DNA of 64,000 bases, from assembly GCA_049799515.1 (NCBI GenBank), contig JBARIA010000119.1:18613-82612 (forward strand), given 5' to 3'. Positions 36,084-53,818 of the stretch are shown here, piece by piece. The notes beneath the pieces are model-generated. The model was given only the letters and a program-made list of their open reading frames with translations, did no database searches and had not been told where the DNA came from. The translations under genes were made by a program, and so were the position numbers. Source of the stretch: Candidatus Dormiibacterota bacterium (lineage in GTDB: Bacteria > Chloroflexota > Dormibacteria > Aeolococcales > Bog-877). How positions within the stretch are numbered: the first letter of the stretch is position 1; every line of letters begins with the position of its first letter.

Positions 36084-36194
36084 TGGGGGCCCCTGGACCG
36101 CCGCAAACGGTCCGGATTCCGGCTCACCATCAGTAAGGTGGTTAAGAGGTTTTACCGCTATGTCGTGAGGAGCGCTCCCGTTAGCCACCCTTTC

Positions 36195-36336: not shown

Positions 36337-36759
36337 ATGAGTCTCGCGGACCAGTACTTCGCCGAGCCGGGATCGGGCAAGGCCCCCACCAGCCAGGGTC
36401 ATTTCGTGGACCTGGCCAAAGACGTCGAGCCGGTCGTGTTCGTGCCTGGACTGGAGTTCAGGCCGGCTCTGGGCGAGGCCACCATGCTGAATTCCGTGCG
36501 CTTCGCGCCCCACACCGAGGCTCCCCTGCACAGCCACGACGAGGAGCAGCTGACCCTGGTGGTGGAGGGAGAGCTGGAGTTCGAGATCGATGGCGAGGTG
36601 CGCCTGCTCACCCCGGGGATGGTGGCGGTGATCCCGGCCAATGTCCCTCACGGGGCCAAGACCGGAGATCTGCCCTGCCACGAGTACGACGTCTTCAACC
36701 CACCCCGCCGAGCGCTGCTGGCCCTGCGGACTCAGAGCCTGCCCCAGGCCGACGGCTAG
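36337..36759 (+). CDS. Cupin domain protein
   Basis: 140 aa with cupin motifs PLHSHDEEQLTLVVEGELEF and VIPANVPHGA. Confidence 0.75.
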   Translation: MSLADQYFAEPGSGKAPTSQGHFVDLAKDVEPVVFVPGLEFRPALGEATMLNSVRFAPHTEAPLHSHDEEQLTLVVEGELEFEIDGEVRLLTPGMVAVIPANVPHGAKTGDLPCHEYDVFNPPRRALLALRTQSLPQADG

Positions 36760-36762
36760 CTG

Positions 36763-37545: not shown

Positions 37546-38492
37546 CCGCACCTGGTGAGATCGTCTACTTCGGCGGAGAGTTCGTGGACCAGGAACGGGC
37601 CCGGGTCCCGATCACCTCCCACGCCTTCAACTACGGCACCGGCTGTTTCGAGGGGATCCGCGCCTACTGGAGTGACCCCCGCGAGCAGCTCTTCGTGATC
37701 CGGCTTAGGGAGCACGGCCAGCGGATCCTGCGCTCGGCGAAAATCCTGCATCTGGAGCCAGATCCCGAGCTCACCGTGGGCAGGTTTGAGCAGATCGTCC
37801 TGGAGCTGCTGGCCCGCAACGACTACCACCAGGACGCCTACATCCGTCCCATCATCTACAAAGGCGGTCACACCATCAAGGTGACCCTAGCCGGGATTCC
37901 CACCGAGTTCTGCTGTTACACGCTGCCGATGGGCGACTACCTGGACATCCGCAAGGGACTCCGGATGATGACCTCCAGCTGGCGTCGAATCGATGACAAC
38001 GCCATTCCGGCCCGGGCCAAGCCGACCGGGGCCTACCTCAATGCCGCCCTGGCTGCCGACGAGGCCCGGTCGCTGGGCTTCGACGAGGCGCTGATGCTGA
38101 CCCACGACGGCCAGGTGGCCGAGGCCTCCTCGGCCAACCTCTTCATGGTCCAGGACGGGGTTGTGATCACCCCCCCGGTCACCGACGACCTGCTGGTTGG
38201 GGTGACCAGGGACTGCGTCATCGCGATGGTCAAGCAGAAGGGCTGGGCGCTGGAAGTGCGTCAGATCGACCGCAGCGAGCTGCTGGCGGCCGACGAGGCG
38301 TTTCTCTGCGGGACCGGGGTGCAGGTCGCCCCGGTGACCAGCATCGATCAACGTCAGGTCGGGGACGGCCAGCTGGGCGAGCTGACCAAGGAGCTCCAGG
38401 ACTGGTACCTGCAGATCATGCGGGGGGAGGTGGAGGACTTCGCCAGCTGGCGCACTTTGGTCGCGCCGCTGGCCCTGCCGGCGAGTCGCTGA
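37542..38492 (+). CDS. Class IV aminotransferase (branched-chain amino acid / D-amino acid aminotransferase family)
   Basis: The ORF track gives 37341..38492. I use ATG 37542 ([43 protein letters not shown]), a typical IlvE-type N-terminus. Confidence 0.85.
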   Translation: [316 protein letters not shown]

Positions 38493-38519
38493 CCGAGCTG
38501 GCTGAAGAGGAGATTGGAA

Positions 38520-38963
38520 ATGGCGCTGGTCCACCTGGTCGAGGAGTCGGAAGCCGAGGGGCTGGTCCAGGAGGTCTACCAGGACATCATGACCAGCCGC
38601 AAGCTGGCCCGGGTGCCCAACTACTGGAAGGCGCTGGCCAACCAGCCGGCGGTGCTGGCGGTCACCTGGGAGAAGCTCAAGACGGTGATGGCCGAAGGTG
38701 CTCTCGATCGACGCACCAAGCAGATCATCGCGGTCGCGGTGTCGGCCACCAATAACTGCGACTACTGCCTGCAGAGCCACACGGACGCGCTCCGGAGCCT
38801 TGGCCTCGGTGACGCCGAACTGGTCGAGCTGATGGCGGTGGTGGACTTCTTCAACGGATCGAACGCTATGGCATCGGGACTGAAAGTTGAGTACGTCCCG
38901 GCGGTGCCGCTGGAGGAGGAGTCGCCCGCCGGGGCATCAACAAACGGAAAGGAGGGGACCTGA
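38520..38963 (+). CDS. Carboxymuconolactone decarboxylase (AhpD-like) family protein
   Basis: CxxC-type motif NNCDYCLQSHT. Preferred start is ATG 38520, with GGAG 7 nt upstream. The track start is TTG 38514. Confidence 0.7.
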   Translation: MALVHLVEESEAEGLVQEVYQDIMTSRKLARVPNYWKALANQPAVLAVTWEKLKTVMAEGALDRRTKQIIAVAVSATNNCDYCLQSHTDALRSLGLGDAELVELMAVVDFFNGSNAMASGLKVEYVPAVPLEEESPAGASTNGKEGT

Positions 38964-40484
38964 ATGGCGACCAGCGAAGCGATATCCCAAGCCGGGAGCC
39001 TGGAGGGCACCGGCCAGCTGCGCAAGGGAAGCCTGCGCACCATCGACGCGGTGGCGATGGCGGTCGCGGTGCTGGCACCGGCGATGGCCATGGCCTACAA
39101 CACCAGCGGGTCGGCGGCCTTCTCGGGCACCTCGACCCCACTGGCGTTCCTGATCGGAGGCATCGGTTGCCTGGCTCTGGGCTTTGTGGTGATCGGATTC
39201 ACCCGCCGGATGGCCTCGGCCGGCTACGCCTACACCTACTCCAGCCGGACGCTGGGCAAGCGGGTGGGCTTCTTGACCGGCTGGATGTACTTCTTCGGGT
39301 TCTTCTGCTTCGTGCCGATGACCATGAGCGGGGTGGGCGGCTTCACCGCCGCCTTGATCCAGACCGAGGTCTGGCACGGGATGCCCAGCTGGTTCTGGTT
39401 CCCTATCTTCCTGGTGGGGATGGCGGCGCTGGTGACCCTCTCCTACCGGGGCGTCAAGCTCAGCGCCCGGGCCCTGCTCTGGGTGGGAGCGGTCACCGTC
39501 ACCGTGATCGTGGTCCTCGACGTCATCCTGACCATCAAGGGGGGAAAGTTCGGCCAGACGCTGCAGCCGTTCACCTTCGGGCACACCCTGCAGGGAGGCT
39601 TCAGTGGCATCTTCTACGGACTGATCTTCGGGGTCACGTCCTTCATCGGCTTCGAGACCGCAGCGGTGCTCGGTGAGGAGACGCGAAACCCCCGCAAGGC
39701 GATCCCGATTTCGGTGCTGGTGGCTGTCTGCTTCGCCATCATCTTCTACGTCTGGACCACCTACAACATCGCCATCGGAGTGGGAGTCAACGCGGCTGGT
39801 TCCAAGGCCTGGGCCGCCAACCCCGCCATCCTGGCCACGCTGGCCAAGACCTTTGTCGGCACGCCGATGATGATCATCGTCGACCTGGCCGCCATCGGCT
39901 CGGCGTTCATCGTCTGCCTGGCCTGCGCTACCGCCGCGACCAGAACCCTCTTTGCGATGGGTCGGGAAGGGGTGCTGCCGAACTGGCTGGGACGCACCCA
40001 TCCAGTCACCCGCACCCCGACCAACGCGATCCTGATGCTCGCCGGAGCGGCCACGATTTCCGCCTTTGTGAGCGGCATCCTTTGGAACCTGGGCCCCTCC
40101 AATAACTATTTCTTCTACGCCAGTGTTGGCACCATTGCGGTGTGCCTCGTCTATGTGGTCCTCTGCGTCGGTGGCTCGGTCTACTTCCGCCGCATCTCGC
40201 AGCGGTACAACCTGCTCGTCCACGGGCTGATCCCGGTGATCGGGATCGCCGTCTTTGGTCTCGCCGTGTACGGTTCCATCTACTCAGGAGCGGTTCCGCC
40301 GGCGCCCTATACCTTCGTGCCCTACGTCAACCTGGGCTGGCTGGTGGTGGGGATCATGCTGGTGGCCTACCTGTCCAAGAGCGCCCCCGAAAAGGTGGGC
40401 CAGATCGGGTCCATCCTGGGCGAGGAGGGCGGGGAGGCGGCCGCGGTTCTGGATCAGCCAGCAATCGCGCCCGCCAGCGGCTAG
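38964..40484 (+). CDS. APC superfamily amino acid/polyamine permease
   Basis: 506-aa ORF with about 12 TM segments. The ATG abuts the upstream stop (TGAATG), with AAAGGAGG upstream. Confidence 0.8.
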   Translation: MATSEAISQAGSLEGTGQLRKGSLRTIDAVAMAVAVLAPAMAMAYNTSGSAAFSGTSTPLAFLIGGIGCLALGFVVIGFTRRMASAGYAYTYSSRTLGKRVGFLTGWMYFFGFFCFVPMTMSGVGGFTAALIQTEVWHGMPSWFWFPIFLVGMAALVTLSYRGVKLSARALLWVGAVTVTVIVVLDVILTIKGGKFGQTLQPFTFGHTLQGGFSGIFYGLIFGVTSFIGFETAAVLGEETRNPRKAIPISVLVAVCFAIIFYVWTTYNIAIGVGVNAAGSKAWAANPAILATLAKTFVGTPMMIIVDLAAIGSAFIVCLACATAATRTLFAMGREGVLPNWLGRTHPVTRTPTNAILMLAGAATISAFVSGILWNLGPSNNYFFYASVGTIAVCLVYVVLCVGGSVYFRRISQRYNLLVHGLIPVIGIAVFGLAVYGSIYSGAVPPAPYTFVPYVNLGWLVVGIMLVAYLSKSAPEKVGQIGSILGEEGGEAAAVLDQPAIAPASG

Positions 40485-40566
40485 TGGCGGGCGGCAACAC
40501 CATCCCCAAGCGGGCTTCGGGTGAGGGCCGACGGGCCCCCACCCGGGCCCACTTCCGCGCCCAGTC

Positions 40567-41664
40567 ATGATCGACAGCCATGGCCACCCGGTCACCGGGG
40601 CGGGCGAGCCGCTCGACCTCAGTGGGATCCACCTGGAGATCGCCAGCGACGGGGAGGCCCGAGCGCTCAGAGCCCAGGCCTCCCCCGGCCGGCTGAGCCA
40701 GGAGCTGATGGCCGTGCGGCTGTCCGCCTACCTCCGTTGCGAGGTGGAAGAGCTAGGTGTGGCCAGGGCCCAGGCCAGCGCCCACTGGCCCGGCTACGTG
40801 GCCGGACTCTTCGCCGACGCCCGCATCGAGGGCCTGGTCTTGGACCCCGGAAGCTACCAGGAGGATCCCGCGCCAGCGACCCAGGAGATGGCCACTATCA
40901 CGGCGACCAAGGTCCGCCCGATCATGCGCCTCGACCCCTTGCTGGACCGGCTCATCTCCGAGGGGCTGACCGCCTCGGAGATCCTTGCGGCCGCCGAGCA
41001 GGCGGTACACCAGGCTCCCGATCAGGGATATGTCGGGCTGAAGACGATCCTCGCCTATCGCACCGGGCTCAAGGTGGACCCCGACGCGACTCTGAAGGAG
41101 GCGGATGCCTCGCTCAAGAACACCAAGGAGCTGCCCACGCGCCGACGGGGCAAGGCGCTCCGCGACCTGATCTGTCGCAAGACGCTGGGCTGGGCCACCG
41201 AACTCGATCTACCGATTCAGTTCCACACCGGCTTCGGCGACTCCGAGCTCCGGCTCAGTGAGGCCGATCCTCTGCTCTTGGAGGAGCTGCTGCTGACCCC
41301 CGAGGGGACAGCCGCCACCGTGGTGCTGATCCATGGTTCCTATCCCTGGCACGAACAGCTGGCCTACCTGACCTTGGTCCGACCCAACGTCCACGCCGAA
41401 CTTTCGCTCTTCAATCTGTTCGCCCCGGTCACGGTCGCCCAGAGGCTGGAGCGGGTGCTGGAGCTGGCACCCGCCTCCCGGGTGATGTGCGGCACCGATG
41501 GCCACGGCTCGCCCGAGACCTACTGGTTCGCTGCCCACGTACTGCGCGAGGCCTGGGCCAAAGTGCGCCAGGACTGGGCGGCTGCAGGGGCCCGCAAGGC
41601 GTGGCTCACGTCACTTGAGGACTCCATCTTTCGGGCCAACGCCGCCCGCCTCTACCGGTTCTGA
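40567..41664 (+). CDS. Amidohydrolase_2 (TIM-barrel metal-dependent hydrolase) family protein
   Basis: 365 aa. N-terminal MIDSHGHP metal-ligand motif, then later ...PIQFHTGFGD... and ...GTDGHG... Confidence 0.7.
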   Translation: MIDSHGHPVTGAGEPLDLSGIHLEIASDGEARALRAQASPGRLSQELMAVRLSAYLRCEVEELGVARAQASAHWPGYVAGLFADARIEGLVLDPGSYQEDPAPATQEMATITATKVRPIMRLDPLLDRLISEGLTASEILAAAEQAVHQAPDQGYVGLKTILAYRTGLKVDPDATLKEADASLKNTKELPTRRRGKALRDLICRKTLGWATELDLPIQFHTGFGDSELRLSEADPLLLEELLLTPEGTAATVVLIHGSYPWHEQLAYLTLVRPNVHAELSLFNLFAPVTVAQRLERVLELAPASRVMCGTDGHGSPETYWFAAHVLREAWAKVRQDWAAAGARKAWLTSLEDSIFRANAARLYRF

Positions 41665-41732: not shown

Positions 41733-42959
41733 CTACTCGTGATCGCCAACGTTGACCGAGAGCGCCCCCTCCATACCGGGAGAAGTGCGTCGGGAGGGAA
41801 TCAATGACTGCCAGCTCTGCCGCTGTCGCCCGGTCAGAGCGAATGCGAGGGGAGTTCGCGCCAAGAGGCCAGTGAGCAGGCCGCAGCCCACAAAGACGAG
41901 CACCACCGTGAAGAGGGACACCACCGGCCAGGGGATGACGCCGTCGAGATTGCGCCAGCCCCAGGCCTCCAGCGGAACAATGAATAGCATTTGAGAGAGG
42001 TAGATGCCGTAGGAGTTGTCGGATCCGGAACGAACCAGTGCCCGCAACCGAGTGGATCGGCGAGCGTCCGCCAGCCAGACCCCCAACAGGTAGAGCGAGC
42101 AGATGGCGCCAATGTAGAAGGGCACCACGATGGGCTGGAAGGGATCTGTCGGCCCGCCCAACCCAATGACGGTACCGGTCGAGTCCAGGGTGTACCAGAG
42201 CTCGGCGACCGCGGCGGCGGCGGCAGTCGCGGCCAGAACCAGATGCGCGTGGCTCCGCAGCCAGGCGTCAATGGTGTCTAGGTGCCAGGCGACGACCATG
42301 CCTCCGACCAAATAGAACTGGTAGGAGGTGAACTCTCGGGACGCGGCGAGTCCCAGCATCCACGACGGCAAGTGCGACCAGTGGATCAGGGAGACGAGCA
42401 CCAACTGAAGCACCAGGCTGATCGAGAGCAGCCACTTGTGATGCCGTTGGGTCGCCCGCAATAGTAGCAAAAATAGGGGGAAAACAAGGTAGAACTGCAT
42501 GATCACGATCAGGTAGTACAGCTGGTAGTAACCGGTACCCACCAGGTATCCCAGGTGAGCTAGTGCGCCCAGCGGTGTGTACGAGACTCCCTTTAGCGGG
42601 AAAACCATGCGAAGGCCGAAGTAGATGAGCGTCCAAGCGAGATACGGGATCCCCACGGCCACGAAACGGCGCTTGTAGAAGCGGCGGTATCCCCCGCGCG
42701 CCAGATCCCGGTAGCTGTAGGTGAGCATGCACGCTGAGAGAAAGAGAAACCCCTCGCGGGTCACGTGGAACAGTAGGATCGACGCGCCAACGGCGATGGC
42801 GCCGCCTGGGGCAAAACCCAACAACGTGTGATTGGAGATCACCCCGACCTGTTTGATCGGCCGCATCGCGTCGACGTGGTCGAGACGCCGTTTGGAATTG
42901 TTCGCGCCGTGAGTCGGGGGAGTGCTCCCCGCTGGTGGCGAGCTCAGTGGGTCTTCCAC
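41733..42959 (-). CDS. Membrane acyltransferase, acyltransferase_3 family
   Basis: 408 aa with about 10 TM segments. The N-terminal RLDHVDAMRPIKQ resembles the conserved R-x-D-x-x-R/G opening of the acyltransferase_3 family. Confidence 0.75.
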   Translation of the reverse strand: MEDPLSSPPAGSTPPTHGANNSKRRLDHVDAMRPIKQVGVISNHTLLGFAPGGAIAVGASILLFHVTREGFLFLSACMLTYSYRDLARGGYRRFYKRRFVAVGIPYLAWTLIYFGLRMVFPLKGVSYTPLGALAHLGYLVGTGYYQLYYLIVIMQFYLVFPLFLLLLRATQRHHKWLLSISLVLQLVLVSLIHWSHLPSWMLGLAASREFTSYQFYLVGGMVVAWHLDTIDAWLRSHAHLVLAATAAAAAVAELWYTLDSTGTVIGLGGPTDPFQPIVVPFYIGAICSLYLLGVWLADARRSTRLRALVRSGSDNSYGIYLSQMLFIVPLEAWGWRNLDGVIPWPVVSLFTVVLVFVGCGLLTGLLARTPLAFALTGRQRQSWQSLIPSRRTSPGMEGALSVNVGDHE

Positions 42960-42997
42960 CGAGAGCTAGTAGTGGCCTTTGGTGGTGGGGCGATGGG

Positions 42998-44686
42998 TCA
43001 CGAGCTGGCCCGCAGGCAGTAGAGGCTCACGGTCTGGCCGACCAGGTGTCGGCGCACCTTGCCGGTGGCGCCAAACGGAAGGTTCTCGACCACGTGAAAT
43101 GCGACCGGCCGCCGGGCCCGCGACAACGACCGCTCGCAGTGCTCCTGGACCCGGTGCACCAGCACTCTGGCCCGGGCCCCGTCCCGCTGGCTGATCGGAA
43201 CTCTGGGCACCAGATAGGCGACCGGGACCTGTCCCATGACCACATCGGCCCGAGCCACGACGGCGACCGCCGCGATCTCGGGGTCGGCCATGATCACCTC
43301 CTCCACTTCGCGAGGGTAGATCTTCTCGCCACCCCGGTTGATCACGTCGTCGGCGCGCCCGACCAGGAATAGGTAGCCATCGTCATCCAGCCGGCCGAGG
43401 TCGCCGGTGTCGAGCCATCCATCCGAGTCGAACCGGTCCTCGTAGCCGGCGCCAAAGTACCGAGTGATAACGCCCGGCCCTCTGATCAGAACCGCTCCAA
43501 CTGCCGTCGACAGGGATCCGATCTCGTCTGGACCGTCCTCAGCCGGTCGACGGGCGCCTTCCCGCTCCCGGTGGCGCCCGGCCGCTAGGGCAGCGGGCAG
43601 CAGGCGCAGTTCGACTCCGATCGGCACTCCCACCGAACCCGGTTTGCGGGTGCCGCTGAGGGGATTGGCGGTGATCTGGCTACCCGCCTCGCTCATCCCG
43701 TATGTCTCGATCACTGGGACGCCGGTGGTGTCCTCGAAGCGCCGAAGAGTCGACACCGGCAGCGGTGCGGAGGCCGACCTGATGAACCTCACCGATGATG
43801 GAACCCGCTCATCCGGATCGAGCGGAACCAACCGGGCGATCACCGCGGGCACAGCATTGATCCAGGTGACTTGCCACCGCTCCATCAGTCGCCAGAAGCC
43901 CTTGCGGTGGAAGCGATCGTCGACCACCAAGGTCGCGCCCGCCAGCAGGGTCGCCAACAGTCCCACCGCCTCCGCGTTGATATGGAAGAGGGGAAGTGGA
44001 TTGAAGCCGCAGTCACTGGGCGTGAGCTGGTGGTGGGAGGCGATGCCGCGCGCGGTATGCAGCAGCTGGGCCTCGGAAAGACAGATCAGCTTCGGTTGGC
44101 CGGTAGTCCCCGAACTGGAGAGGAGGAGACCGCCTGACGTGCCGGCAGGGTGGGCGTCACGGTTGGCAAAGAGATTGCTCGGAGGCACAGGAATCACGGG
44201 CGCGGCCGGCCGCGCGTTTTCCTGCAGTCCTGTCCAGCCGGAGTGGAACGCCAATTCCGGCCTGTCGAAGGATCCGGTTGGTAGCTCGCTCCACCCGTCC
44301 ACAGCTGGGCCGGGAGACGGATGGTCAGCGATCACGATGCGGGGATGAAGCCGCTGGCATACGGCGCTCAGCTCCTCGTCGGGCGCGGCAGGATTGAGTG
44401 GTGCCGCAGTTCTGCCTGAAGCGACCACGGCCAGGAACAGCAGTGAGAAGTCAACCGGGTCTGCCACGGCGATACCTACCACCTGGCCCCGCCGGGCGCC
44501 CAGCTTGGGGAGCAGTGTGCGCCAGCGGTCCACCACTTCGTGGAGCTCGCCGAAGGTGATCCCACGCTCCCCACGTGAATGCTCGAGAAAGGCGTCCTCA
44601 CCGTCGGTTGCGGCCCTACGCCGAATAACTTCAGCCAACTGGGACCCGCGATCAGAAGGCTCAATCTCGGGGATTTCTGCCGCCAT
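42998..44686 (-). CDS. ANL-superfamily adenylate-forming enzyme (acyl-CoA synthetase/ligase-like)
   Basis: 562 aa. AMP-binding motif LLSSSGTTGQPKLI, ETYGMSE, and TGDLGRLDDDGYLFLVGRADDVINRGGEKIYPREVE. The ATG shares 1 nt with the upstream stop (TGATG). Confidence 0.85.
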   Translation of the reverse strand: MAAEIPEIEPSDRGSQLAEVIRRRAATDGEDAFLEHSRGERGITFGELHEVVDRWRTLLPKLGARRGQVVGIAVADPVDFSLLFLAVVASGRTAAPLNPAAPDEELSAVCQRLHPRIVIADHPSPGPAVDGWSELPTGSFDRPELAFHSGWTGLQENARPAAPVIPVPPSNLFANRDAHPAGTSGGLLLSSSGTTGQPKLICLSEAQLLHTARGIASHHQLTPSDCGFNPLPLFHINAEAVGLLATLLAGATLVVDDRFHRKGFWRLMERWQVTWINAVPAVIARLVPLDPDERVPSSVRFIRSASAPLPVSTLRRFEDTTGVPVIETYGMSEAGSQITANPLSGTRKPGSVGVPIGVELRLLPAALAAGRHREREGARRPAEDGPDEIGSLSTAVGAVLIRGPGVITRYFGAGYEDRFDSDGWLDTGDLGRLDDDGYLFLVGRADDVINRGGEKIYPREVEEVIMADPEIAAVAVVARADVVMGQVPVAYLVPRVPISQRDGARARVLVHRVQEHCERSLSRARRPVAFHVVENLPFGATGKVRRHLVGQTVSLYCLRASS

Positions 44687-45096
44687 CAGTACATCATTCG
44701 GTGGTCGCGATAGTGCTTGAACTCGATCAGGTTGTCGGACGGGTCGCGCAGGACGAAGGTGCGGTGCACCTCGGCCCGGCCCTCGAACCTGCTCGTGAGG
44801 TCACTGAAGAAAGGGATCTCGCGCATAACTGCAACCTCATGCACAGCGTCGAAGTCCTCACCGTGCCGGAAGGTAACCCCGAAATGGCGCGGGTACATGC
44901 TCTCTGGACCACCTTTGGATCCAGGATCCCCCGCGGTCAGATGGCAGACCACCTGGTCGCCGAAGAAGTCCAGCGTGATGCGATCGTCGTAGTGGCGGGC
45001 CAGCTTGCAGCCGAGCAGGTCTACGTAGAAGTGCTGGGCAGCCTGCAGGTCGTAGGCCGGGATGGCCACGTGGAAGACGTCACCGGAGTCCCTCAC
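44686..45096 (-). CDS. VOC (glyoxalase/bleomycin resistance/dioxygenase) family protein
   Basis: 136 aa. VFHVAIPAYDLQAAQHFYVDLLGCKL is a typical VOC beta-alpha-beta-beta-beta opening. GTGA overlap with the comA-like stop. Confidence 0.7.
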   Translation of the reverse strand: MRDSGDVFHVAIPAYDLQAAQHFYVDLLGCKLARHYDDRITLDFFGDQVVCHLTAGDPGSKGGPESMYPRHFGVTFRHGEDFDAVHEVAVMREIPFFSDLTSRFEGRAEVHRTFVLRDPSDNLIEFKHYRDHRMMY

Positions 45097-45869
45097 CGAA
45101 CGGCGCCTTCGAACACGGTCAGGGTGTCGGACCGCAACCCGAGGCGCAGTGTTTCCAACGGAATGACGTCGTTGGCCGCCACATTGCCGAGATTGACGTC
45201 GCTGCCGACGCGGCGGACGAAATATGCCTGTAGGGTCGTGGTCGGGGCCTCGAACATCAGCTGGTTAACTGTGAGCTCGCCGCCCAGCAACTCTTCGATG
45301 AGCCCGATGCGAAGTTGGCCATCGCTGCGGCAGATTCCGGAGCGCCCACTTTCCCGCGATTCCAGGGTAACCAGAGAGGCGCCGGCATCCAAGTCCTCGC
45401 AGATGTACTCGATCCAGCGCTTGGGCATCAATTCCTCTGAGCGGGTTGGGTCCTTGAAGCCCACTTCTGAGATCACCGTGAAGTCAGGAGCCAGCTTGCG
45501 GATGTAGTCCGCCTTCTCATGGTTGGACATGGTCACGGTTCCGTTCGACACCTCCACTCGGGTACAGCCGTATTCCTGACAGAGGGCACGGAACTCATCA
45601 AAACGCCGCTGCAGCACGTGCTTTTCGAAGAGTGTGCCGCCGAAGTAGAAATCGATTTCGCGTTCTTGGAGCACCTCGACCTTGCTGCTCAGTTCCCGGG
45701 AGACCAGGGCGGTCCCCCAGCCGAACTTCACCAGGTCGATGAAGTCGCCCGCGCTGTCGATCATGTCACCCAGGGTGCGTAGGGGAAGGCCATCGTCGAG
45801 AACCATGGTCAACCCGGCGTTGCGAGGTTTGGTAGCCCGTGCTGGGAGTCGCAAGGTCGTTTGATTCAT
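45093..45869 (-). CDS. comA: (2R)-phospho-3-sulfolactate synthase (ComA) family protein
   Basis: The ORF track gives 45093..45974. I use ATG 45869, which forms an ATGA overlap with the upstream stop. KPRNAGLTMVLDDGL...GDFIDLVKFGWGTA...FYFGGTLFE...GCTRVEVSNGTV...VISEVGFKD matches my recollection of the ComA family pattern. Confidence 0.75.
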   Translation of the reverse strand: MNQTTLRLPARATKPRNAGLTMVLDDGLPLRTLGDMIDSAGDFIDLVKFGWGTALVSRELSSKVEVLQEREIDFYFGGTLFEKHVLQRRFDEFRALCQEYGCTRVEVSNGTVTMSNHEKADYIRKLAPDFTVISEVGFKDPTRSEELMPKRWIEYICEDLDAGASLVTLESRESGRSGICRSDGQLRIGLIEELLGGELTVNQLMFEAPTTTLQAYFVRRVGSDVNLGNVAANDVIPLETLRLGLRSDTLTVFEGAVR

Positions 45870-46564
45870 CGGAGCGCTCCGTCTGCCACCCGGCGCGAGG
45901 AGCTGGGTGTTTGGTTGCTGGCCTCGGAGGGCACTACGCGACGCACCACCAGGCCGTTCTCGATCGCTAGCCATGCCATCTCGTCAGGTCCCGTTCCGAC
46001 GAGCAGGGCCAGCAAGACGCGCACCATTCCGCCGTGAGTTACCAGCACCAGGTCGCCGGGCTCGGGAAGCTGTTGAATTGCTTCGACGATATCGGCGGCC
46101 CGCGCGTAGAGTTCCCGGATCGACTCTCCGTTGGGAGGGGCGGCATCGGCGTCGGTCACCCGTCCGTAGCGGATGCCTGAGAACCGTGGAGAGAGAGTCC
46201 GAGTCCCTGTTCCTTCAGCCCGGCCGTAGCTTCGCTCGCGCAACCGGCGATCTGACCCCACCGGAAGGCCCAGAGCGGCGGCTATCGGATCCGCGGTCTG
46301 CAGAGCACGCTGCAGGTCACTCGACCAGACCACTCCCACCGGTTCGTCAGCCAGTTGGCGGGCCACTTCCTGGGCCTGGGCCACTCCCCGCCGGGTTAGC
46401 ACGGGCACCTGGGTCTGCCCCTGCACCAGACCGCGGGCGTTCCAGGTGCTCTCCCCATGGCGAACCAGCCAGATCACCCGTTCGCTCGGCGCGGGATCGA
46501 TCACCAGACCAGTCTTTCGGCCAACCCTTAGGTTCCGGTGAGGTATTGCTGGGCACGGCCTCAA
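45866..46564 (-). CDS. Histidine phosphatase superfamily protein (phosphoglycerate-mutase-like)
   Basis: Contains the RHGES catalytic motif (VIWLVRHGESTWNARGLVQGQ) and later VTHGG. The start is uncertain: TTG 46564, or one of the in-frame GTGs further in. Confidence 0.75.
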   Translation of the reverse strand: MRPCPAIPHRNLRVGRKTGLVIDPAPSERVIWLVRHGESTWNARGLVQGQTQVPVLTRRGVAQAQEVARQLADEPVGVVWSSDLQRALQTADPIAAALGLPVGSDRRLRERSYGRAEGTGTRTLSPRFSGIRYGRVTDADAAPPNGESIRELYARAADIVEAIQQLPEPGDLVLVTHGGMVRVLLALLVGTGPDEMAWLAIENGLVVRRVVPSEASNQTPSSSRRVADGALR

Positions 46565-46687
46565 GTTCTGCTGGGAAAAGGAACGCCGAAGCGTTGGAGC
46601 CGACCGAGGCGGGCCTTGGTTGGCCGTCAGCCGCCGGCGGAAAAGCTCCAGCCGGCGGTTGGGGTGGTGGCGGGCGCCCTCACACCC

Positions 46688-47311
46688 TCAGGAGAAGAGC
46701 CCCTCGGTGGTGGTCACCGGACGCCACTTGGGCCGGCTCAGCTCGAAGGCGGCGATGGCCTTCTCCTGACCGACGGCCATGGCGATCGGATCGCGGCCGC
46801 TCAGTAAACAGTCACGCCAGAAGGGGTCGATGGCGAAGTCGGCGATCGACCCACCTTGGTCCCGGACCTGTTGCTGGTCGAGGTCGACAGCCAGCCGATA
46901 ACCGCCCTTCGTCGCGCGCTCACGGAGGCCGGTTACCGCATCGGCTGGCAGCTGGACCGGAAGCAGTCCGTTCTGCAGGGCATTGGCGGTGAAGATGTCG
47001 GCGAAGGACGGAGCGATGACCACCCTGAATCCCATCCCCACCAGTGCCCACACGGCGTGTTCCCGCGAGGAACCGCAGCCGAAGTTGCGCCCGGTGACCA
47101 GGATGCTGGCGCCTTGACAGGCCGGGTCGTTCAGTTCGAATTCGGGACGGGGCTGTCCCTGGTCGTCGTAGCGCCAGGCGAAGAAGCAGGCGTCGCCGTA
47201 GTCGTCCCGGTCGGTCCGCTTCAGGAACTGCTTGGGGATGATCTGGTCGGTGTCGACATCGTCGCGGCTCAGGGCCGCACAAAGCCCCTCGTGAAGCGTG
47301 AAGACATCCAT
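46688..47311 (-). CDS. leuD: 3-isopropylmalate dehydratase small subunit
   Basis: 207 aa with DVDTDQIIPKQFLK and GRNFGCGSSREHA. Confidence 0.9.
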   Translation of the reverse strand: MDVFTLHEGLCAALSRDDVDTDQIIPKQFLKRTDRDDYGDACFFAWRYDDQGQPRPEFELNDPACQGASILVTGRNFGCGSSREHAVWALVGMGFRVVIAPSFADIFTANALQNGLLPVQLPADAVTGLRERATKGGYRLAVDLDQQQVRDQGGSIADFAIDPFWRDCLLSGRDPIAMAVGQEKAIAAFELSRPKWRPVTTTEGLFS

Positions 47312-47320
47312 CTCTTTGCC

Positions 47321-48805
47321 CTACCCGACGGCCGTCAGGGCGGCCGGCTCCAGATCTCGGACGTCGACGAAGTGACCGTGGAGTGCCGCCGCTGCTGCCA
47401 TCGACGGACTGACCAGGTGGGTGCGGCCCCCGGCGCCCTGGCGACCCTCGAAATTGCGGTTCGAGGTCGAGGCGCAGCGCTCGCCTGAGGCCAGTACATC
47501 CGGGTTCATGCCCAGGCACATCGAGCAGCCGGCCTCCCGCCATTCGAAGCCCGCGTCGATGAAGATGCGGTCGAGCCCCTCCTTCTCGGCGGCCCGCTTG
47601 ACGGTTTGGGATCCTGGCACGACCATCGCCCGGACCCCGGGATGCACCCGACCGCCGGCGGCGATGGCCGCTGCAGCTCGGAGGTCCTCCAGCCGGCCGT
47701 TGGTGCAGGAACCGATGAATACCCGGTCGATCGAGATCTCCTCGATCGCGGTGCCCTCGGTGAGCCCCATGTACTCCAGAGCCCGGACAACCTGCTGGCG
47801 CTCCAACTCGTTGCTGAACTCGCTCAGCCGGGGAATCCGCCCGGTTACCTGGGCCACCATGCCCGGGTTGGTTCCCCAGGTCACATGGGGCACCAGCTGG
47901 CTGGCCTCGATCACAACCGTGCGATCAAATTCCGCCCCTTCGTCGGTGGCGAACTCCAGCCAGGCCTGGGTCGCCTGCTCGAACTCCGACCCTTTCGGGG
48001 AGGCCGCCCGACCGGCCAGGTAGCGCACCGTTGTCTGGTCAGCGGAGACCAGTCCAGCTCGAGCTCCCGCCTCGATAGTCAGGTTGCAGACCGTCATCCG
48101 ACCCTCCATTGACAGCGCCCTGATGGCGCTGCCGCAGTACTCGACCACGGTGCCCTGAGCGCCCGCCACCCCAACCCGGCCGATGATCGCCAGGGCCATG
48201 TCCTTGGCGGTAACCCCCAGCGGTAGCTCACCGTCCACTCTGATCTCCAGGGTCTGGGCGGGAGCTTGCCAGAGGCACTGGGTGGCCAGAACCTGCTCCA
48301 CCTCGGAGGTACCGATCCCAAAGGCCAGCGCTCCAAGTGCCCCGAGCGTCGAGGTGTGGGAGTCGCCGCAGACGATGGTCATGCCCGGCTGGATCAGGCC
48401 CAGCTCCGGTCCGATCACGTGAACGATCCCCTGGCGCCGGTGGTGCAGATCCAGCAGGGGCACCCGGGCCTCGCCGCAGTTGGCGGCCAGCTGACGGAGC
48501 TGCTCGGCGGCCACCGGGTCGGGGGTGGGCCGGCTGCGCTCCCAGGTGGGCACGGTGTGGTCCATCACCGCCAGGGTGAGGTCGGCGCGACGGACTCCCC
48601 GACCCTCCGCCCGCAGTCCGGCGAACGCTTGGGGCGAGGTCACTTCATGGACCAGGTGCAGGTCGACGTAGATCAGGGCCCGGGAGTCCGGGTCGCCGCT
48701 GACCGTGTGCGCGTCCCAGATCTTGCGATACGCGGTCCGGGGGGCAGCCGACGATTCCTGCTTGACCACGGCGCGGTTCTGCTCCATCCGGTTGATGTCC
48801 TTCAT
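47321..48805 (-). CDS. leuC: 3-isopropylmalate dehydratase large subunit
   Basis: The ORF track gives 47321..48961. I trim the start to ATG 48805 (alternative 48787), downstream of the cimA stop. Aconitase-family motifs are VCGDSHT, GSCTNGR and NRNFEGRQG. Confidence 0.9.
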
Positions 48806-48824
48806 ATGGTGCTGGCCAGAATTC

Positions 48825-50459
48825 TCAGGCGGTCGGGGAGAGGCGGGCCAACGATTCGGCATGGCGGGCCGCCCACTCGTAGCTGTCGACCAGCGCCAGC
48901 GCGGAGGCCTGGAGGATGTTGGCGGAGCATCCGACCGTGGTCCAGACCCGCTCGCCGTCACTGGAGTCTATCCCCACCCTTACTGTGGCCCCGGTCCCCT
49001 GATCCCCGTCGATGACCCGAACCCGGTAATCCAGCAGCTGTACTGAGGCCAGGCTCGGGAAGTGTGGAGCTAAGGCTCGGCGCAGGGCCAGGTCGAGCGC
49101 CTCCACCGGGCCGGCCGCCTCGGCGGCGGTGTGGACCACGGTGCCGGCCACCAGCACCTTGACACTGGCCTGAACGTTCTGGGACGGCTCAGCCGCCCGC
49201 GGGGTCGAGGTCTCGTGGGCCACCAACAGCGACTCCTGCAGCGCGAACGGCGCGCAGTCGCCCGGGGCGCTCCTGGTGACCAGCAGCTCGAAGGAGGCGT
49301 CGGCGTCCTCGAAGGCCCAGCCGGCGGTTTCCAGCTGCTTCAGTCGCTCCACGATGGATCCGCGGGCGTCCCGGTCAAGACCCTCAAGCCCCAGCTCCTT
49401 CAGCTTGCTGGCAACGTTGCTGCGCCCGCTCTGGTCGGAGACCACCGTCCGGGCCTCGTTCCCCACCAAAGCGGGGTCGATGTGCTGATAGGCGCGCTCG
49501 TCCCGGGCGACCGCCTGGGCGTGGAGTCCCCCCTTGTGCAGAAAGGCGGCAGGGCCGACGTAGGGCCGGTGGGGATCCGGTGCCCGGTTGACCAGGGCGT
49601 CGAACAAGCGGGAGACCCCGACCAGCTCCTGCAAGCGCCCAGGACTGAGCACCGGGCGTCCCAACTTCAACTGGAGGTTGGCGGCGATGACCAAGAGGTC
49701 GGCGTTGCCGCAGCGCTCGCCGCTGCCGTTGACGGTGCCCTGGACCATGGTGGCGCCGGCCTCCACCGCGGCCAGGGAGTTGGCCACCGCGACTCCAGCG
49801 TCGTTATGGCAGTGGATCCCGAGCGGTACCTCGATCTTGGCTCGCACCACCTCGGTGGCCCGGCCCACCGCAGTTGGAAGCTGGCCGCCGTTGGTGTCGC
49901 AGAGGACTAACCAACTGGCACCGGCCCGGGCCGCGGTCTCGATCACGGACAGGGCGTAACCCTGGTCCTGGTCCAGCCCGTCGAAGAAATGCTCGGCGTC
50001 GAAGATCACCTCTCGGCCCAGGGCGACCGCGTAGGTGACGGTGTCCTCCACCATCCGCAGGTTCTCCTGTGCTGTGGTGCCCAGCACCGTCTCCGCCTGC
50101 CAGCGGGAGGACTTGCCCACCACCGTCACCACCGGGGCGCCGGAGTTGATGGTCAGCGCCAGTCCCGGGTCGAGCAGCGCCTCGACTCCCGGGCGACAGG
50201 TCGAACCGAAGGCGGCCAGCCGGGCAGAGCCCAGCGGGGCCAGGGCCAACCGCTCGAAGACGGCGGTGTCCCGTGGATTGGCCCCCGGCCAGCCGGCCTC
50301 GACGTAGTCGACCCCCAGATCATCGAGGCGGCGGGCGACCTTGAGCTTCTGCTCGATGCTGAGCTGGAGGCCGAAGCCCTGCATCCCATCACGCAGGGTG
50401 GTGTCGTAGAGCACCACCTTTGCCGCCCCCGGAAGGTCCTTTCGGGCTGCCGCACTCAT
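48825..50459 (-). CDS. cimA: Citramalate synthase-type member of the 2-isopropylmalate synthase family (with C-terminal regulatory domain)
   Basis: 544 aa. The opening [20 protein letters not shown]...[15 protein letters not shown] fits my recollection of the CimA (LeuA2) clade. HCHND is present, and a long C-terminal domain is retained. Confidence 0.75.

Positions 50460-52754: not shown

Positions 52755-52758
<4 letters not shown>
51538..52758 (-). CDS. leuA: 2-isopropylmalate synthase family enzyme, short form (no C-terminal regulatory domain)
   Basis: 406 aa with [27 protein letters not shown] and [16 protein letters not shown]. It ends shortly after ...[16 protein letters not shown], where full-length LeuA would continue into the LeuA_dimer domain. 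Confidence 0.8.

Positions 52759-53818
<1,060 letters not shown>

What the first reader, a model, noticed from the sequence alone, without database searches (positions are those of the whole stretch)
41733..46564. Five-gene, translationally coupled cluster built around a phosphosulfolactate synthase (ComA) homolog, lacking the rest of any known sulfolactate/coenzyme M pathway
**Seen in sequence.** Five minus-strand genes are packed with start/stop overlaps. Histidine phosphatase to ComA-like is ATGA at 45866-45869. ComA-like to VOC is GTGA at 45093-45096. VOC to ANL ligase is TGATG at 44684-44688. A 38-nt gap then separates the ligase from a polytopic acyltransferase_3 protein.

**Established knowledge.** ComA adds sulfite to phosphoenolpyruvate to give phosphosulfolactate, in methanogen coenzyme M synthesis and in Bacillus sulfolactate formation. 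It is normally followed by the ComB phosphatase and then ComC and ComDE. None of those three is recognisable in this window.

**Inference.**
- The RHG histidine phosphatase may be a non-orthologous replacement for ComB.
- The ANL enzyme could activate the resulting sulfolactate, or a partner acid.
- The VOC protein could act on the activated acid. Its fold includes methylmalonyl-CoA epimerase.
- The membrane acyltransferase_3 could transfer the group to an envelope glycan or lipid.

If correct, this would be a route to a sulfonated cell-envelope decoration or metabolite that I do not recognise as described.
Basis: partly seen in the sequence, partly recalled or inferred. Interest (0 to 1): 0.7.

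Follow-up and report, generated by a model that had tools for sequence, protein, structure and literature searches.

The report
Conserved sulfonate-acyl envelope modification gene module
The five genes are real and recur as a unit in dozens of soil and acid-loving bacterial species; they most likely build a small sulfonate-bearing acid from sulfite and hand it to a membrane acyltransferase that decorates the cell surface, a modification I could not find described.

Summary
Five minus-strand genes sit at 41733-46504 with the stated overlaps: histidine phosphatase, ComA-family phosphosulfolactate synthase, VOC metalloenzyme, ANL ligase and AT3 membrane acyltransferase.

They are a conserved module, not a chance neighbourhood.
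- In 66 species-representative loci with enough flank, ComA sits beside the VOC in 66, AT3 in 65, ANL in 64 and the phosphatase in 61. All five occur in 59.
- The ComA-VOC-ANL-AT3 core recurs in Alicyclobacillus (Bacillota), often beside an exported GDSL/SGNH protein.
- In Ferroacidibacillus a canonical ComB occupies the phosphatase slot (ComB-ComA-VOC).

The closest precedent is the misNOPQ cassette (ACP, acyl-CoA ligase, ComA, glyoxalase). It is predicted, not shown, to supply the 2-sulfoacetyl group of misaugamycin-B.

My best reading is: PEP plus sulfite gives phosphosulfolactate, then sulfolactate. The VOC converts it to sulfoacetate (inferred). The ligase makes sulfoacetyl-CoA. AT3 transfers the group to an unknown extracytoplasmic acceptor.

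The VOC chemistry, the acyl group and the acceptor are all untested. The host is a Dormibacterota MAG, and the cluster looks horizontally acquired from Actinomycetota. I rate it a new variant of known kinds and moderately to highly interesting.

The parts
45866..46504 (-). Histidine phosphatase (branch 1, RHG), 212 aa from the GTG at 46504. A longer reading from the TTG at 46564 is possible. Proposed 2-phospho-3-sulfolactate phosphatase, a non-orthologous ComB substitute.
   Evidence: PF00300, E = 1.5e-48. The catalytic set R15/H16/G17, R66, E90 and H157 is at least 95% conserved in 59 sequences (the window protein plus 58 orthologues). It lies next to ComA in 61 of 66 loci. ComB occupies the same slot in L089. 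The 212-aa start matches the gene call and the NCBI protein.
45093..45869 (-). ComA-family (2R)-phospho-3-sulfolactate synthase homologue, 258 aa. Its start overlaps the phosphatase stop (ATGA).
   Evidence: PF02679, 273 bits, covering model positions 2-243 of 243. PDB 1U83 (B. subtilis YitD) scores 274 bits and 1QWG (M. jannaschii ComA) 165 bits, with the motifs KFGWGT, GGTLFE, EVSNG, SEVGxK, ExRESG and FEAP all kept. The score of 228 against TIGR03849 is below its cut-off of 280.
44686..45096 (-). Small VOC (glyoxalase/FosA-like fold) protein, 136 aa, of uncharacterised function. Proposed to convert sulfolactate to the acid that is then activated, most likely sulfoacetate.
   Evidence: PF00903, E = 8.4e-12. 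PDB 3RRI (Alicyclobacillus, structural genomics) matches at E = 6.4e-48. The AF2 model has pLDDT 86; Foldseek finds 3RRI first, then uncharacterised VOC proteins and FosA/FosB. H9 and E125 align with FosA metal ligands H7 and E110. 57 columns are invariant, including H9, H52, H71, E109, H111, E125, C30, C51 and six Arg. It is always adjacent to ComA (66 of 66).
42998..44686 (-). ANL (AMP-forming) acid-CoA ligase, 562 aa. Its start shares one base with the VOC stop (TGATG).
   Evidence: PF00501, E = 1.3e-50, and PF13193. The closest solved structures are oxalate-CoA ligases 5IE0 and 6QJZ (221 and 214 bits), then MenE and malonyl-CoA synthetases. The P-loop and the A10 lysine K543 are conserved. 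It is present in 64 of 66 loci.
41733..42959 (-). Stand-alone AT3 (Acyl_transf_3) polytopic membrane acyltransferase, 408 aa, 38 nt downstream of the ligase.
   Evidence: PF01757, E = 7.2e-30. R33-X10-H44 in the first TM helix is conserved in 85 sequences; the motif is defined in PMC7448272. At least 7 hydrophobic segments are predicted. It is present in 65 of 66 loci.
46505..46687 (-). 183-nt spacer between the leuD stop and the phosphatase start. It holds a GC-rich hairpin (46631-46658) without a U-tract. The cluster's own promoter, or read-through from the ilv/leu operon, is undecided.
   Evidence: Sequence read. No sigma-70-like promoter or canonical terminator was found on the minus strand here. 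There is no Rfam match.

Best explanation
The five genes form one operon-like module. It makes a small sulfonated acyl donor and attaches it to something outside the cytoplasmic membrane.

**Proposed steps**
1. ComA adds sulfite to phosphoenolpyruvate, giving (2R)-2-phospho-3-sulfolactate. This is inferred from family membership and conserved active-site motifs.
2. The histidine phosphatase removes the phosphate, giving 3-sulfolactate. This is inferred from its fixed position beside ComA, and from a canonical ComB in the same position in a Bacillota relative.
3. The VOC metalloenzyme acts on the free C3 sulfonate.
   - It most likely shortens it oxidatively to sulfoacetate (sulfolactate + O2 -> sulfoacetate + CO2 + H2O).
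   - This is the weakest step.
   - It rests on the sulfoacetyl group of misaugamycin-B, on a FosA-like metal site, and on the aerobic lifestyles I attribute to the cultured carrier genera (own knowledge, not checked here).
4. The ANL ligase makes the CoA thioester, sulfoacetyl-CoA. Its nearest characterised relatives activate oxalate and malonate, and sulfoacetate is a malonate isostere.
5. [quoted passage not shown]
   - The acceptor could be a glycan, teichoic-like polymer, peptidoglycan or glycolipid, and is unknown.
   - In many relatives an exported SGNH/GDSL partner is present.

The result would be a permanently anionic sulfonate ester on the cell surface.
For: **Gene anatomy**
- Start/stop overlaps are as described.
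- Family assignments hold.

**Co-conservation**
- Across 66 informative species-level loci, ComA occurs in 66, AT3 in 65, ANL in 64 and the phosphatase in 61. All five occur in 59.
- ANL and AT3 appear in either order, so selection is on presence rather than inherited synteny.

**Cross-phylum recurrence**
- Alicyclobacillus acidoterrestris carries ANL, MFS, AT3, GDSL, ComA and VOC.
- A metagenomic lineage carries GDSL, a two-component system, ComA, VOC, ANL and AT3.
- Ferroacidibacillus carries ComB-ComA-VOC.

**Envelope link**
- GDSL/SGNH homologues lie beside AT3 in about 38 of 80 loci. Three that I inspected have N-terminal signal or anchor sequences.
- AT3 keeps the R-X10-H catalytic motif (PMC7448272).
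- AT3 proteins are known to transfer anionic succinyl groups (PMC9558356).

**Precedent**
- misNOPQ (ACP, acyl-CoA ligase, ComA, glyoxalase) is predicted to supply the 2-sulfoacetyl group of misaugamycin-B. Sulfite feeding favours that congener (PMC9136965).
- The VOC shares FosA's H and E metal ligands.
Against: - No step has been tested biochemically, here or in the literature I could search.
- The misNOPQ role is itself only a prediction. I could not obtain the Mis protein sequences to test orthology.
- The third metal ligand of the VOC is not cleanly aligned: FosA H64 aligns two residues before H71. No VOC enzyme is known to me that oxidatively decarboxylates a 2-hydroxy acid.
- The window has no SGNH partner, no second AT3 and no two-component system.
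- No glycosyltransferase or polymer-synthesis gene is consistently linked, so the acceptor is unknown.
- Two related loci pair ComA-VOC with a PLP decarboxylase, an amino-acid permease and a glutamate dehydrogenase instead of ANL/AT3. This hints that the VOC product might be sulfopyruvate-like rather than sulfoacetate.
- Plant HSA32, which a paper title and abstract listed present as a heat-stress protein stabilised by HSP101, belongs to the ComA family according to my own knowledge (not checked here). It would show the family is not tied to a single role.
Confidence: 0.5

Rival explanations
1. The logic is the same, but the transferred group is 3-sulfolactyl (C3). The ligase activates sulfolactate. 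The VOC is an accessory enzyme, for example a sulfolactate or sulfolactyl-CoA epimerase.
For: The VOC superfamily includes methylmalonyl-CoA epimerase (established knowledge). ComA plus a phosphatase suffice to make sulfolactate. Nothing in the window directly shows C3-to-C2 shortening. The ligase's relatives accept various small acids.
Against: The only chemically characterised product linked to a ComA + VOC + ligase cassette is 2-sulfoacetyl, not sulfolactyl (PMC9136965). ComA-VOC occurs without any ligase, so the VOC does not need a CoA ester. The VOC's nearest fold neighbours with a known function are FosA/FosB metalloenzymes acting on a free C3 phosphonate, not CoA epimerases.
Confidence: 0.2
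2. The module makes a soluble, secreted or lipid-bound small molecule rather than a polymer decoration. AT3 would acylate a small acceptor, as in macrolide or ansamitocin tailoring or Nod-factor acylation. Alternatively the sulfonate is an osmolyte or storage compound.
For: AT3 proteins acylate small molecules in antibiotic pathways (PMC9558356). The misaugamycin cassette serves a secondary metabolite. In L026 and L046, ComA-VOC is paired with a PLP decarboxylase, a permease and a glutamate dehydrogenase, which suggests a soluble sulfonate such as cysteate or taurine. An MFS transporter sits in the Alicyclobacillus cluster.
Against: No scaffold-building genes (NRPS, PKS, glycosyltransferase sets) are conserved around the module in 80 loci. 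Exported SGNH partners and nearby envelope-type two-component systems fit surface-polymer acylation better. The module lies among housekeeping genes here.
Confidence: 0.15
3. The module is a sulfite-detoxification or sulfonate-salvage route. ComA traps toxic sulfite on PEP and the downstream enzymes merely dispose of the product. Alternatively the pathway runs catabolically, with a SauT-like sulfoacetate-CoA ligase.
For: ComA consumes sulfite. By my own knowledge (not checked here) several cultured carrier genera are acidophiles from sulfur-rich habitats: Alicyclobacillus, Sulfobacillus and Ferroacidibacillus. CoA-dependent sulfoacetate degradation is known (PMC10413351, listed).
Against: Neither detoxification nor catabolism explains a strictly linked membrane acyltransferase and exported SGNH protein. 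No desulfonating enzyme (Xsc, SuyAB or a sulfoacetaldehyde dehydrogenase) is linked. Spending PEP plus ATP per sulfite is costly for detoxification.
Confidence: 0.07
4. The ComA homologue does not use sulfite in this context. It has another nucleophile or another role, so the product is not a sulfonate.
For: The score against the archaeal ComA equivalog model is below its cut-off (228 vs 280). By my own knowledge (not checked here) plant HSA32 is a ComA-family member; a paper listed presents HSA32 as a heat-stress protein.
Against: It is closer to B. subtilis YitD, a phosphosulfolactate synthase with a solved structure, than YitD-type enzymes are to archaeal ComA. All motifs shared by 1U83 and 1QWG are kept. 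A genuine ComB is its neighbour in Ferroacidibacillus. Sulfite feeding raised the sulfoacetyl congener in the Streptomyces system.
Confidence: 0.05

Closest known systems
misNOPQ cassette of the misaugamycin gene cluster (Streptomyces sp. WAC00631; PMC9136965)
   Same: It combines a ComA-family synthase, a small glyoxalase/VOC protein and an acyl-CoA (ANL) ligase in one operon. It is predicted to deliver a sulfonated acyl group (2-sulfoacetyl). It appears mobile between genomes.
   Different: The Mis cassette hands the acyl group to an ACP for an NRPS product and has no dedicated phosphatase. The module here has no ACP, adds a histidine phosphatase and ends in an AT3 membrane acyltransferase. 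The Mis role is itself only predicted.
Sulfolactate and coenzyme M pathways: archaeal ComA-ComB-ComC-ComDE, B. subtilis YitD/YitC, and bacterial XcbB1-E1 (PMC9457059)
   Same: The first committed enzyme is the same (PEP + sulfite -> phosphosulfolactate). Dephosphorylation is the presumed second step.
   Different: There is no ComB, ComC or ComDE, and no aspartase-type XcbC1 or later Xcb enzymes. The phosphatase comes from a different superfamily. The downstream genes (VOC, ANL, AT3) have no counterpart in those pathways. The end product is an acyl decoration, not a thiol cofactor.
AT3 (Acyl_transf_3) surface O-acyltransferases, including anionic-acyl transferases OpgC/MdoC, ExoH and IcaC (PMC9558356, PMC7448272)
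   Same: It is a polytopic AT3 protein with the R/K-X10-H motif. Relatives frequently pair it with an exported SGNH/GDSL protein. Precedents exist for transferring an anionic acyl group (succinyl) to envelope glycans.
   Different: Known AT3 systems draw on central-metabolism acyl-CoAs (acetyl, succinyl). This one is genetically welded to a dedicated pathway that would make an unusual sulfonated donor. The acceptor is unknown.
DltABCD D-alanylation of teichoic acids (own knowledge)
   Same: The operon logic matches: an ANL-superfamily activating enzyme, a polytopic membrane acyltransferase and an extracytoplasmic SGNH-like protein change surface charge. Relatives often have a two-component system nearby.
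   Different: Dlt uses a carrier protein (DltC) and an MBOAT (DltB), not AT3. It adds a cationic D-alanyl ester, whereas this module would add a strongly anionic group. The resemblance is functional only, not membership.
FosA/FosB fosfomycin-modifying VOC metalloenzymes and PDB 3RRI
   Same: The fold is the same small two-module VOC. Two FosA metal ligands align (H7 and E110 with H9 and E125). FosA binds a free C3 organo-anion at the metal. 3RRI is a true family member (about 60% identity).
   Different: Identity to FosA/FosB is only 13-23% in the listed Foldseek alignments. The third ligand and the thiol/K+ sites are not evidently conserved. 3RRI has no assigned function, so the VOC chemistry here is unknown.

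Membership tests
ComA / phosphosulfolactate synthase family (PF02679) | Full-length match to the family model above its gathering score | tested here: met
   273 bits against a cut-off of 25.2, covering model positions 2-243 of 243.
ComA / phosphosulfolactate synthase family (PF02679) | Score above the curated equivalog cut-off for archaeal ComA (TIGR03849) | tested here: not met
   228 bits against a cut-off of 280. It is a bacterial YitD-like member, not an archaeal-type equivalog.
ComA / phosphosulfolactate synthase family (PF02679) | Retention of residues shared by the two structurally solved synthases. These include the position of M. jannaschii Lys137 (proposed catalytic acid, recalled from memory) and the acidic residues of the barrel. 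| tested here: met
   Alignment to 1U83 and 1QWG keeps KFGWGT, GGTLFE, E(V/I)S(N/D)G, SEVGxK (K139 aligns with Mj K137), ExRESG and FEAP. These residues are at least 95% conserved in 76 sequences (the window protein plus 75 orthologues).
ComA / phosphosulfolactate synthase family (PF02679) | Catalysis of PEP + sulfite -> phosphosulfolactate | not testable with these tools
   Needs an enzyme assay.
Archaeal/Bacillus sulfolactate-CoM pathway (ComA-ComB-ComC-ComDE) | ComB (PF04029) phosphatase present with ComA | tested here: not met
   There is no ComB in the window (tblastn best E = 1.4) or in the 84 related loci L001-L084. A His_Phos_1 protein occupies the slot.
Archaeal/Bacillus sulfolactate-CoM pathway (ComA-ComB-ComC-ComDE) | ComC (Ldh_2) dehydrogenase and ComDE sulfopyruvate decarboxylase present | tested here: not met
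   Pfam scans of the window's ORFs found no Ldh_2. The only TPP enzyme is the AHAS of the ilv operon.
misNOPQ-type sulfoacetyl-supply cassette | Adjacent ComA-family, glyoxalase/VOC and acyl-CoA ligase genes | tested here: met
   ComA-VOC-ANL are contiguous and overlapping. The cassette is described in PMC9136965.
misNOPQ-type sulfoacetyl-supply cassette | Dedicated acyl carrier protein | tested here: not met
   There is no room for an ACP gene within the cluster (38-nt gap). No PP-binding family appeared among the recurrent neighbour clusters I scanned.
misNOPQ-type sulfoacetyl-supply cassette | Sequence orthology to MisO/MisP/MisQ, and a sulfoacetyl product | not tested
   The Mis sequences are not in any collection I could still query. 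The product needs chemistry.
AT3 membrane acyltransferases (PF01757) | Family model match and R/K-X10-H motif in the first TM helix | tested here: met
   104.6 bits. R33-X10-H44 is at least 95% conserved in 85 sequences. The motif is defined in PMC7448272.
AT3 membrane acyltransferases (PF01757) | RXXR motif in loop 2-3 / TM3, and FFXISG-like motif in TM2 | tested here: inconclusive
   There is a basic cluster RRFYKRR (R98 conserved) and FLFLSA, but neither is an exact RXXR or FFXISG.
AT3 membrane acyltransferases (PF01757) | Fused or adjacent extracytoplasmic SGNH partner (a feature of a subset of the family) | tested here: not met
   None is in the window. One is present beside AT3 in about 38 of 80 related loci and in L085 and L088.
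Histidine phosphatase superfamily branch 1 | RHG nucleophile motif plus the second Arg, Glu and His | tested here: met
   PF00300, E = 1.5e-48. R15, H16, G17, R66, E90 and H157 are conserved. No NCBIfam equivalog cut-off is reached, so the specificity is not assigned.
VOC metalloenzymes (FosA-like) | Paired beta-alpha-beta-beta-beta fold with a His/His(Glu)/Glu metal triad | tested here: inconclusive
   The fold is confirmed. H9 and E125 align with FosA H7 and E110. The third ligand is offset by two residues.

The most novel reading that the evidence does not exclude
A widespread but unrecognised cell-surface modification may exist: esterification of an envelope polymer with a sulfonate-bearing acyl group (2-sulfoacetyl). 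It would occur in soil, peat and acidophilic Actinomycetota, Bacillota, Chloroflexota and Dormibacterota. The donor would come from a dedicated pathway whose key step is a new reaction for the VOC superfamily, the O2-dependent conversion of sulfolactate to sulfoacetate. A sulfonate stays charged at any pH, so this would give these organisms a pH-independent anionic surface.
Probability: 0.3. Interest if true: 0.8.

Novelty: new variant of a known kind. Interest (0 to 1): 0.62.

Why it matters
- **A new surface chemistry.** If correct, this adds a new chemical class, C-sulfonate acyl esters, to bacterial envelope decorations.
- **A function for an orphan family.** It would assign a role to a very highly conserved VOC family that has had a crystal structure (3RRI) since 2011 but no function.
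- **A biosynthetic source.** It would give a biosynthetic rather than degradative origin for sulfoacetate.
- **An enzymatic basis for a drug feature.** It would explain the sulfoacetyl group that improves the activity of misaugamycin-B.
- **Reach.** Relatives of the VOC are encoded in at least 521 species-representative genomes. Many of these are abundant uncultured soil and peat Acidimicrobiia.
- **Immediate testability.** Cultured carriers exist, namely Alicyclobacillus acidoterrestris and Trebonia kvetii.

Tried and rejected
**Hypotheses rejected**
- *Coenzyme M or classic sulfolactate pathway.* Rejected because ComB, ComC, ComDE and Xcb enzymes are absent.
- *VOC as a CoA-ester epimerase.* Disfavoured because ComA-VOC occurs without a ligase.
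- *A riboswitch or leader RNA upstream.* No credible Rfam hit.
- *A recognisable promoter or terminator separating the cluster from leuD.* The simple scans found none on the relevant strand. Transcriptional coupling to the ilv/leu operon stays open.
- *A carrier protein hidden in the loci.* The 86-aa recurrent ORF is an ACT domain, not an ACP.

**Searches that found nothing**
- I searched for sulfoacetylated or sulfolactylated envelope polymers, for ComA with an acyltransferase, and for follow-up work on the mis cassette.
- The supplement holding the proposed mis pathway (Fig. S54) is not held.

**Leads of limited weight**
- An apparent ANL-AT3 fusion ORF in a Ktedonobacterales contig (L087) would support direct hand-off. 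It is a single MAG contig with low-complexity linkers, so I treat it as weak.

**Limits of the comparative data**
- The genome scan kept only the 80 closest of at least 521 loci. Streptomyces-type cassettes were therefore not recovered.

Full report

Yes. Five minus-strand ORFs lie between 41733 and 46564.

- ATGA at 45866-45869 (phosphatase stop, ComA start);
- GTGA at 45093-45096 (ComA stop, VOC start);
- TGATG at 44684-44688 (VOC stop, ligase start, one shared base);
- a 38-nt gap before the last gene.

Two starts need refinement.
- The ComA homologue starts most plausibly at the ATG at 45869 (258 aa). That is the length of its homologues and of the gene call on an identical contig.
- The phosphatase starts most plausibly at the GTG at 46504 (212 aa).

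Pfam confirms all five assignments:

| Gene | Family | E-value |
|---|---|---|
| Phosphatase | His_Phos_1 | 1.5e-48 |
| Synthase | ComA | 2.3e-81, full model length |
| VOC | Glyoxalase | 8.4e-12 |
| Ligase | AMP-binding, AMP-binding_C | 1.3e-50, 8.5e-11 |
| Acyltransferase | Acyl_transf_3 | 7.2e-30 |

**2. Surroundings and source**

- Directly upstream on the same strand is a long branched-chain amino-acid operon, from 46688 to 56157. It runs AHAS large and small subunits, KARI, two HMGL-type synthases flanking isopropylmalate dehydrogenase, then LeuC and LeuD.
- Downstream on the other strand is an unrelated operon: cupin, SDR, class IV aminotransferase, CMD, amino-acid permease and amidohydrolase.
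- The rest of the window is housekeeping.
- No ComB is present by tblastn. No Ldh_2 (ComC) or dedicated sulfopyruvate decarboxylase appears anywhere in the window.

The exact proteins belong to a Candidatus Dormibacterota MAG, on a 127-kb contig (NCBI MGC2192572-75). Three points suggest horizontal acquisition from Actinomycetota.
- The flanking KARI falls in a 90%-identity cluster of 47 members, most of whose named members are Dormibacterota.
- The cluster proteins have only one other member at that level. Their next relatives (at most 75% identity) are Acidimicrobiales.
- Three of the five cluster genes (ligase, ComA, phosphatase) have GC3 of 0.73-0.77; the VOC (0.82) and AT3 (0.79) are closer to the adjacent leu genes, which lie at 0.83-0.87.

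**3. Is the five-gene set conserved?**

I scanned one genome per bacterial and archaeal species with an alignment of the VOC protein.
- The 80 best loci were kept. They are mostly Acidimicrobiia and Streptosporangiales such as Trebonia.

tblastn of the five window proteins against these loci shows the same module almost everywhere. Among the 66 loci with enough flanking DNA:

| Component beside the VOC | Loci (of 66) |
|---|---|
| ComA | 66 |
| AT3 | 65 |
| ANL ligase | 64 |
| Histidine phosphatase | 61 |
| All five | 59 |

ANL and AT3 occur in either order, and the phosphatase occurs on either strand. This argues for selection on co-presence rather than frozen synteny. Flanking genes differ between lineages.

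Recurrent extra neighbours are:
- a second, divergent AT3 paralogue;
- a GDSL/SGNH protein immediately beside AT3 in about 38 of 80 loci;
- an OmpR-type response regulator with a histidine kinase in 21-27 loci.

The GDSL proteins I read carry N-terminal signal or anchor sequences, so they are extracytoplasmic. None of these extras is in the window.

**4. Cross-phylum contexts**

I searched with the sequence of the VOC's close PDB relative 3RRI and looked up genomic contexts.

| Locus and organism | Genes found |
|---|---|
| L085, Alicyclobacillus acidoterrestris | ANL, MFS transporter, AT3, GDSL, ComA, VOC |
| L088, metagenomic lineage | GDSL, response regulator, kinase, HTH, ComA, VOC, ANL, AT3 |
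| L089, Ferroacidibacillus | ComB (PF04029)-ComA-VOC with overlapping genes; no ligase or AT3 nearby |
| L086 and L090, Sulfobacillus-type | 2-hydroxyacid dehydrogenase beside VOC and a MurJ-like flippase; L090 also has a sulfotransferase and a GDSL protein; no ComA |
| L087, Ktedonobacterales contig | one ORF running from an ANL C-terminus into an AT3 domain, followed by ComA and VOC |
| L026 and L046, Actinomycetota | ComA-VOC converging on phosphatase + PLP decarboxylase, plus an amino-acid permease and glutamate dehydrogenase; no ANL or AT3 |

Three conclusions follow.
- ComA-VOC is the invariant core.
- A phosphatase, either ComB or a histidine phosphatase, is its usual companion.
- ANL-AT3, with or without SGNH, is the commonest output sub-module.

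**5. The individual proteins**

*ComA homologue*
- It is closer to B. subtilis YitD (1U83, 274 bits) than to M. jannaschii ComA (1QWG, 165 bits).
- It keeps every motif the two share. This includes the lysine aligned with Mj Lys137; my memory of its proposed role is not verified here.
- It scores below the archaeal equivalog cut-off (228 vs 280).

*Histidine phosphatase*
- It has the full catalytic set but reaches no equivalog threshold.
- Its solved relatives act on phosphoglycerate-like and similar small phosphoesters. That is chemically close to 2-phospho-3-sulfolactate (inference).

*ANL ligase*
- Its nearest solved relatives are oxalate-CoA ligases, then MenE and malonyl-CoA synthetases. 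These are enzymes for very small anionic acids that make CoA thioesters.

*VOC protein*
- The family is extraordinarily conserved. 57 columns are invariant in 32 sequences at 67-75% identity to the window protein, and identity to Bacillota members is still about 56-62%.
- The AlphaFold model is confident (pLDDT 86).
- Apart from 3RRI, which has no assigned function, the nearest folds are uncharacterised VOC proteins and FosA/FosB.
- Profile alignment puts H9 and E125 on FosA's metal ligands H7 and E110. The third ligand is offset.
- The many invariant Arg residues fit a poly-anionic substrate (inference).

*AT3*
- It keeps the R-X10-H motif of the first helix. That motif is essential in OafA (PMC7448272).
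- AT3 proteins are known to move succinyl as well as acetyl groups onto envelope glycans (PMC9558356).

**6. Literature**

The only paper I found linking ComA with a glyoxalase is the misaugamycin study (PMC9136965).
- The cassette is predicted to supply the 2-sulfoacetyl N-acyl group of misaugamycin-B.
- Sulfite feeding favoured that congener.

The proposed scheme (Fig. S54) is not held. I found no follow-up enzymology. I found no report of sulfoacetylated or sulfolactylated envelope polymers, or of ComA with a membrane acyltransferase.

**7. Most likely mechanism**

1. PEP and sulfite give phosphosulfolactate (ComA).
2. Dephosphorylation gives sulfolactate (histidine phosphatase, standing in for ComB).
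3. The VOC converts it to sulfoacetate.
4. The ligase makes sulfoacetyl-CoA.
5. [quoted passage not shown]

How firmly each step is supported:
- Steps 1 and 2 rest on family membership plus positional genomics.
- Steps 4 and 5 rest on nearest characterised relatives and conserved linkage.
- Step 3 is inference. A 2-hydroxy acid is a four-electron donor that could balance O2 without a co-substrate. The cultured carrier genera are aerobes by my own knowledge (not checked here). The only known product of such a cassette is a C2 sulfonate.

The PLP-decarboxylase variant (L026, L046) and the 2-hydroxyacid-dehydrogenase variant (L086, L090) keep open that the VOC's substrate or product is sulfopyruvate-related.

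The carriers include genera that are acidophilic by my own knowledge (Alicyclobacillus, Sulfobacillus, Ferroacidibacillus) and MAGs whose record names point to bog, palsa and SPRUCE samples. A sulfonate stays ionised at any pH, which suggests a rationale. This is speculation.

**8. Comparison with known systems**

The module works like an AT3 (+SGNH) surface O-acylation system fed by a dedicated donor pathway. In logic it resembles Dlt (activating enzyme, membrane acyltransferase, SGNH-like protein), but with the opposite charge.
- It shares three of four parts with the mis cassette, but lacks the ACP.
- It is not a coenzyme M or classical sulfolactate pathway.

I file it as a new variant of known kinds.

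**9. Verdict**

The envelope-sulfonate idea and the ComB replacement hold up. The VOC role and the identity of the acyl group probably differ. Part of the cassette has been noted before.
- Confidence in the overall mechanism is about 0.5.
- Interest is 0.62.

Noticed in passing
window 41733-46504 versus flanks: The cluster looks horizontally acquired. The contig is from a Dormibacterota MAG, and its KARI clusters at 90% identity mostly with other Dormibacterota. The cluster proteins' next relatives (at most 75% identity) are Acidimicrobiales. GC3 is 0.73-0.77 for the ligase, ComA and phosphatase (0.79-0.82 for AT3 and the VOC), against 0.83-0.87 in the adjacent leu genes.
   Followed up: partly
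window 46688-56157 (minus strand): A complete ilvB-ilvN-ilvC, HMGL-type synthase, leuB, second HMGL-type synthase (LeuA/CimA-like), leuC, leuD operon ends 183 nt upstream of the cluster on the same strand. A GC-rich hairpin without a U-tract lies at 46631-46658. Read-through into the cluster is possible.
   Followed up: partly
L087:1-3027: In a Ktedonobacterales MAG contig, one uninterrupted ORF runs from an ANL C-terminal domain through a low-complexity linker into an AT3 domain and a C-terminal HTH region. ComA and VOC follow directly. This is either a Rosetta-stone fusion or an assembly or stop-loss artefact.
   Followed up: partly
L026:9207-15831 and L046:91-7181: This is a variant module. 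ComA-VOC converges on a phosphatase plus a group II PLP decarboxylase, with an amino-acid permease and a glutamate/leucine-type dehydrogenase next to them, and no ANL or AT3. It suggests a route to an amino-sulfonate such as cysteate or taurine that uses the same ComA-VOC core.
   Followed up: partly
L086:6953-10407 and L090:2802-12168: In Sulfobacillus-type Bacillota the VOC orthologue has no ComA neighbour. It sits beside a D-2-hydroxyacid dehydrogenase and a MurJ-like flippase; L090 additionally has an MFS transporter, a sulfotransferase and a GDSL/DUF459 protein nearby. This is an envelope-polysaccharide-like context.
   Followed up: no
L002:15496-19525 (also L006, L018, L030, L044): Some Acidimicrobiales loci carry a second, divergent ANL ligase on the opposite strand beyond the GDSL gene. 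In L002 an FMN-dependent alpha-hydroxy-acid oxidase/dehydrogenase (PF01070) follows it. That enzyme is another candidate for oxidising a 2-hydroxy sulfonate.
   Followed up: no
L011:7675-8406, L049:6454-7977, L088:3606-5766: An OmpR-type response regulator (27 loci) and a HAMP histidine kinase (21 loci) recur next to the module in Streptosporangiales-type and other lineages. This hints at envelope-stress-type regulation. They are absent from the window.
   Followed up: partly
window 36337-41664 (plus strand): A tightly packed operon converges on the cluster's 3' end: cupin, SDR, class IV aminotransferase, carboxymuconolactone-decarboxylase-family protein, amino-acid permease and amidohydrolase_2. 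An Lrp/AsnC regulator lies upstream on the other strand (35544-36188). Its function is unknown.
   Followed up: no
window 6816-9684: This stretch holds a [2Fe-2S] small subunit and an FAD medium subunit of a molybdenum hydroxylase (CO-dehydrogenase/xanthine-dehydrogenase type), with MobA-like and CoxG genes. I did not see a large subunit among the ORFs I scanned.
   Followed up: no
window 44686-45096 / PDB 3RRI: The VOC family has had a crystal structure since 2011 (3RRI, Alicyclobacillus acidocaldarius, structural genomics) but no assigned function. It has two invariant cysteines (C30, C51) in addition to the His/Glu candidates for metal binding.
   Followed up: partly
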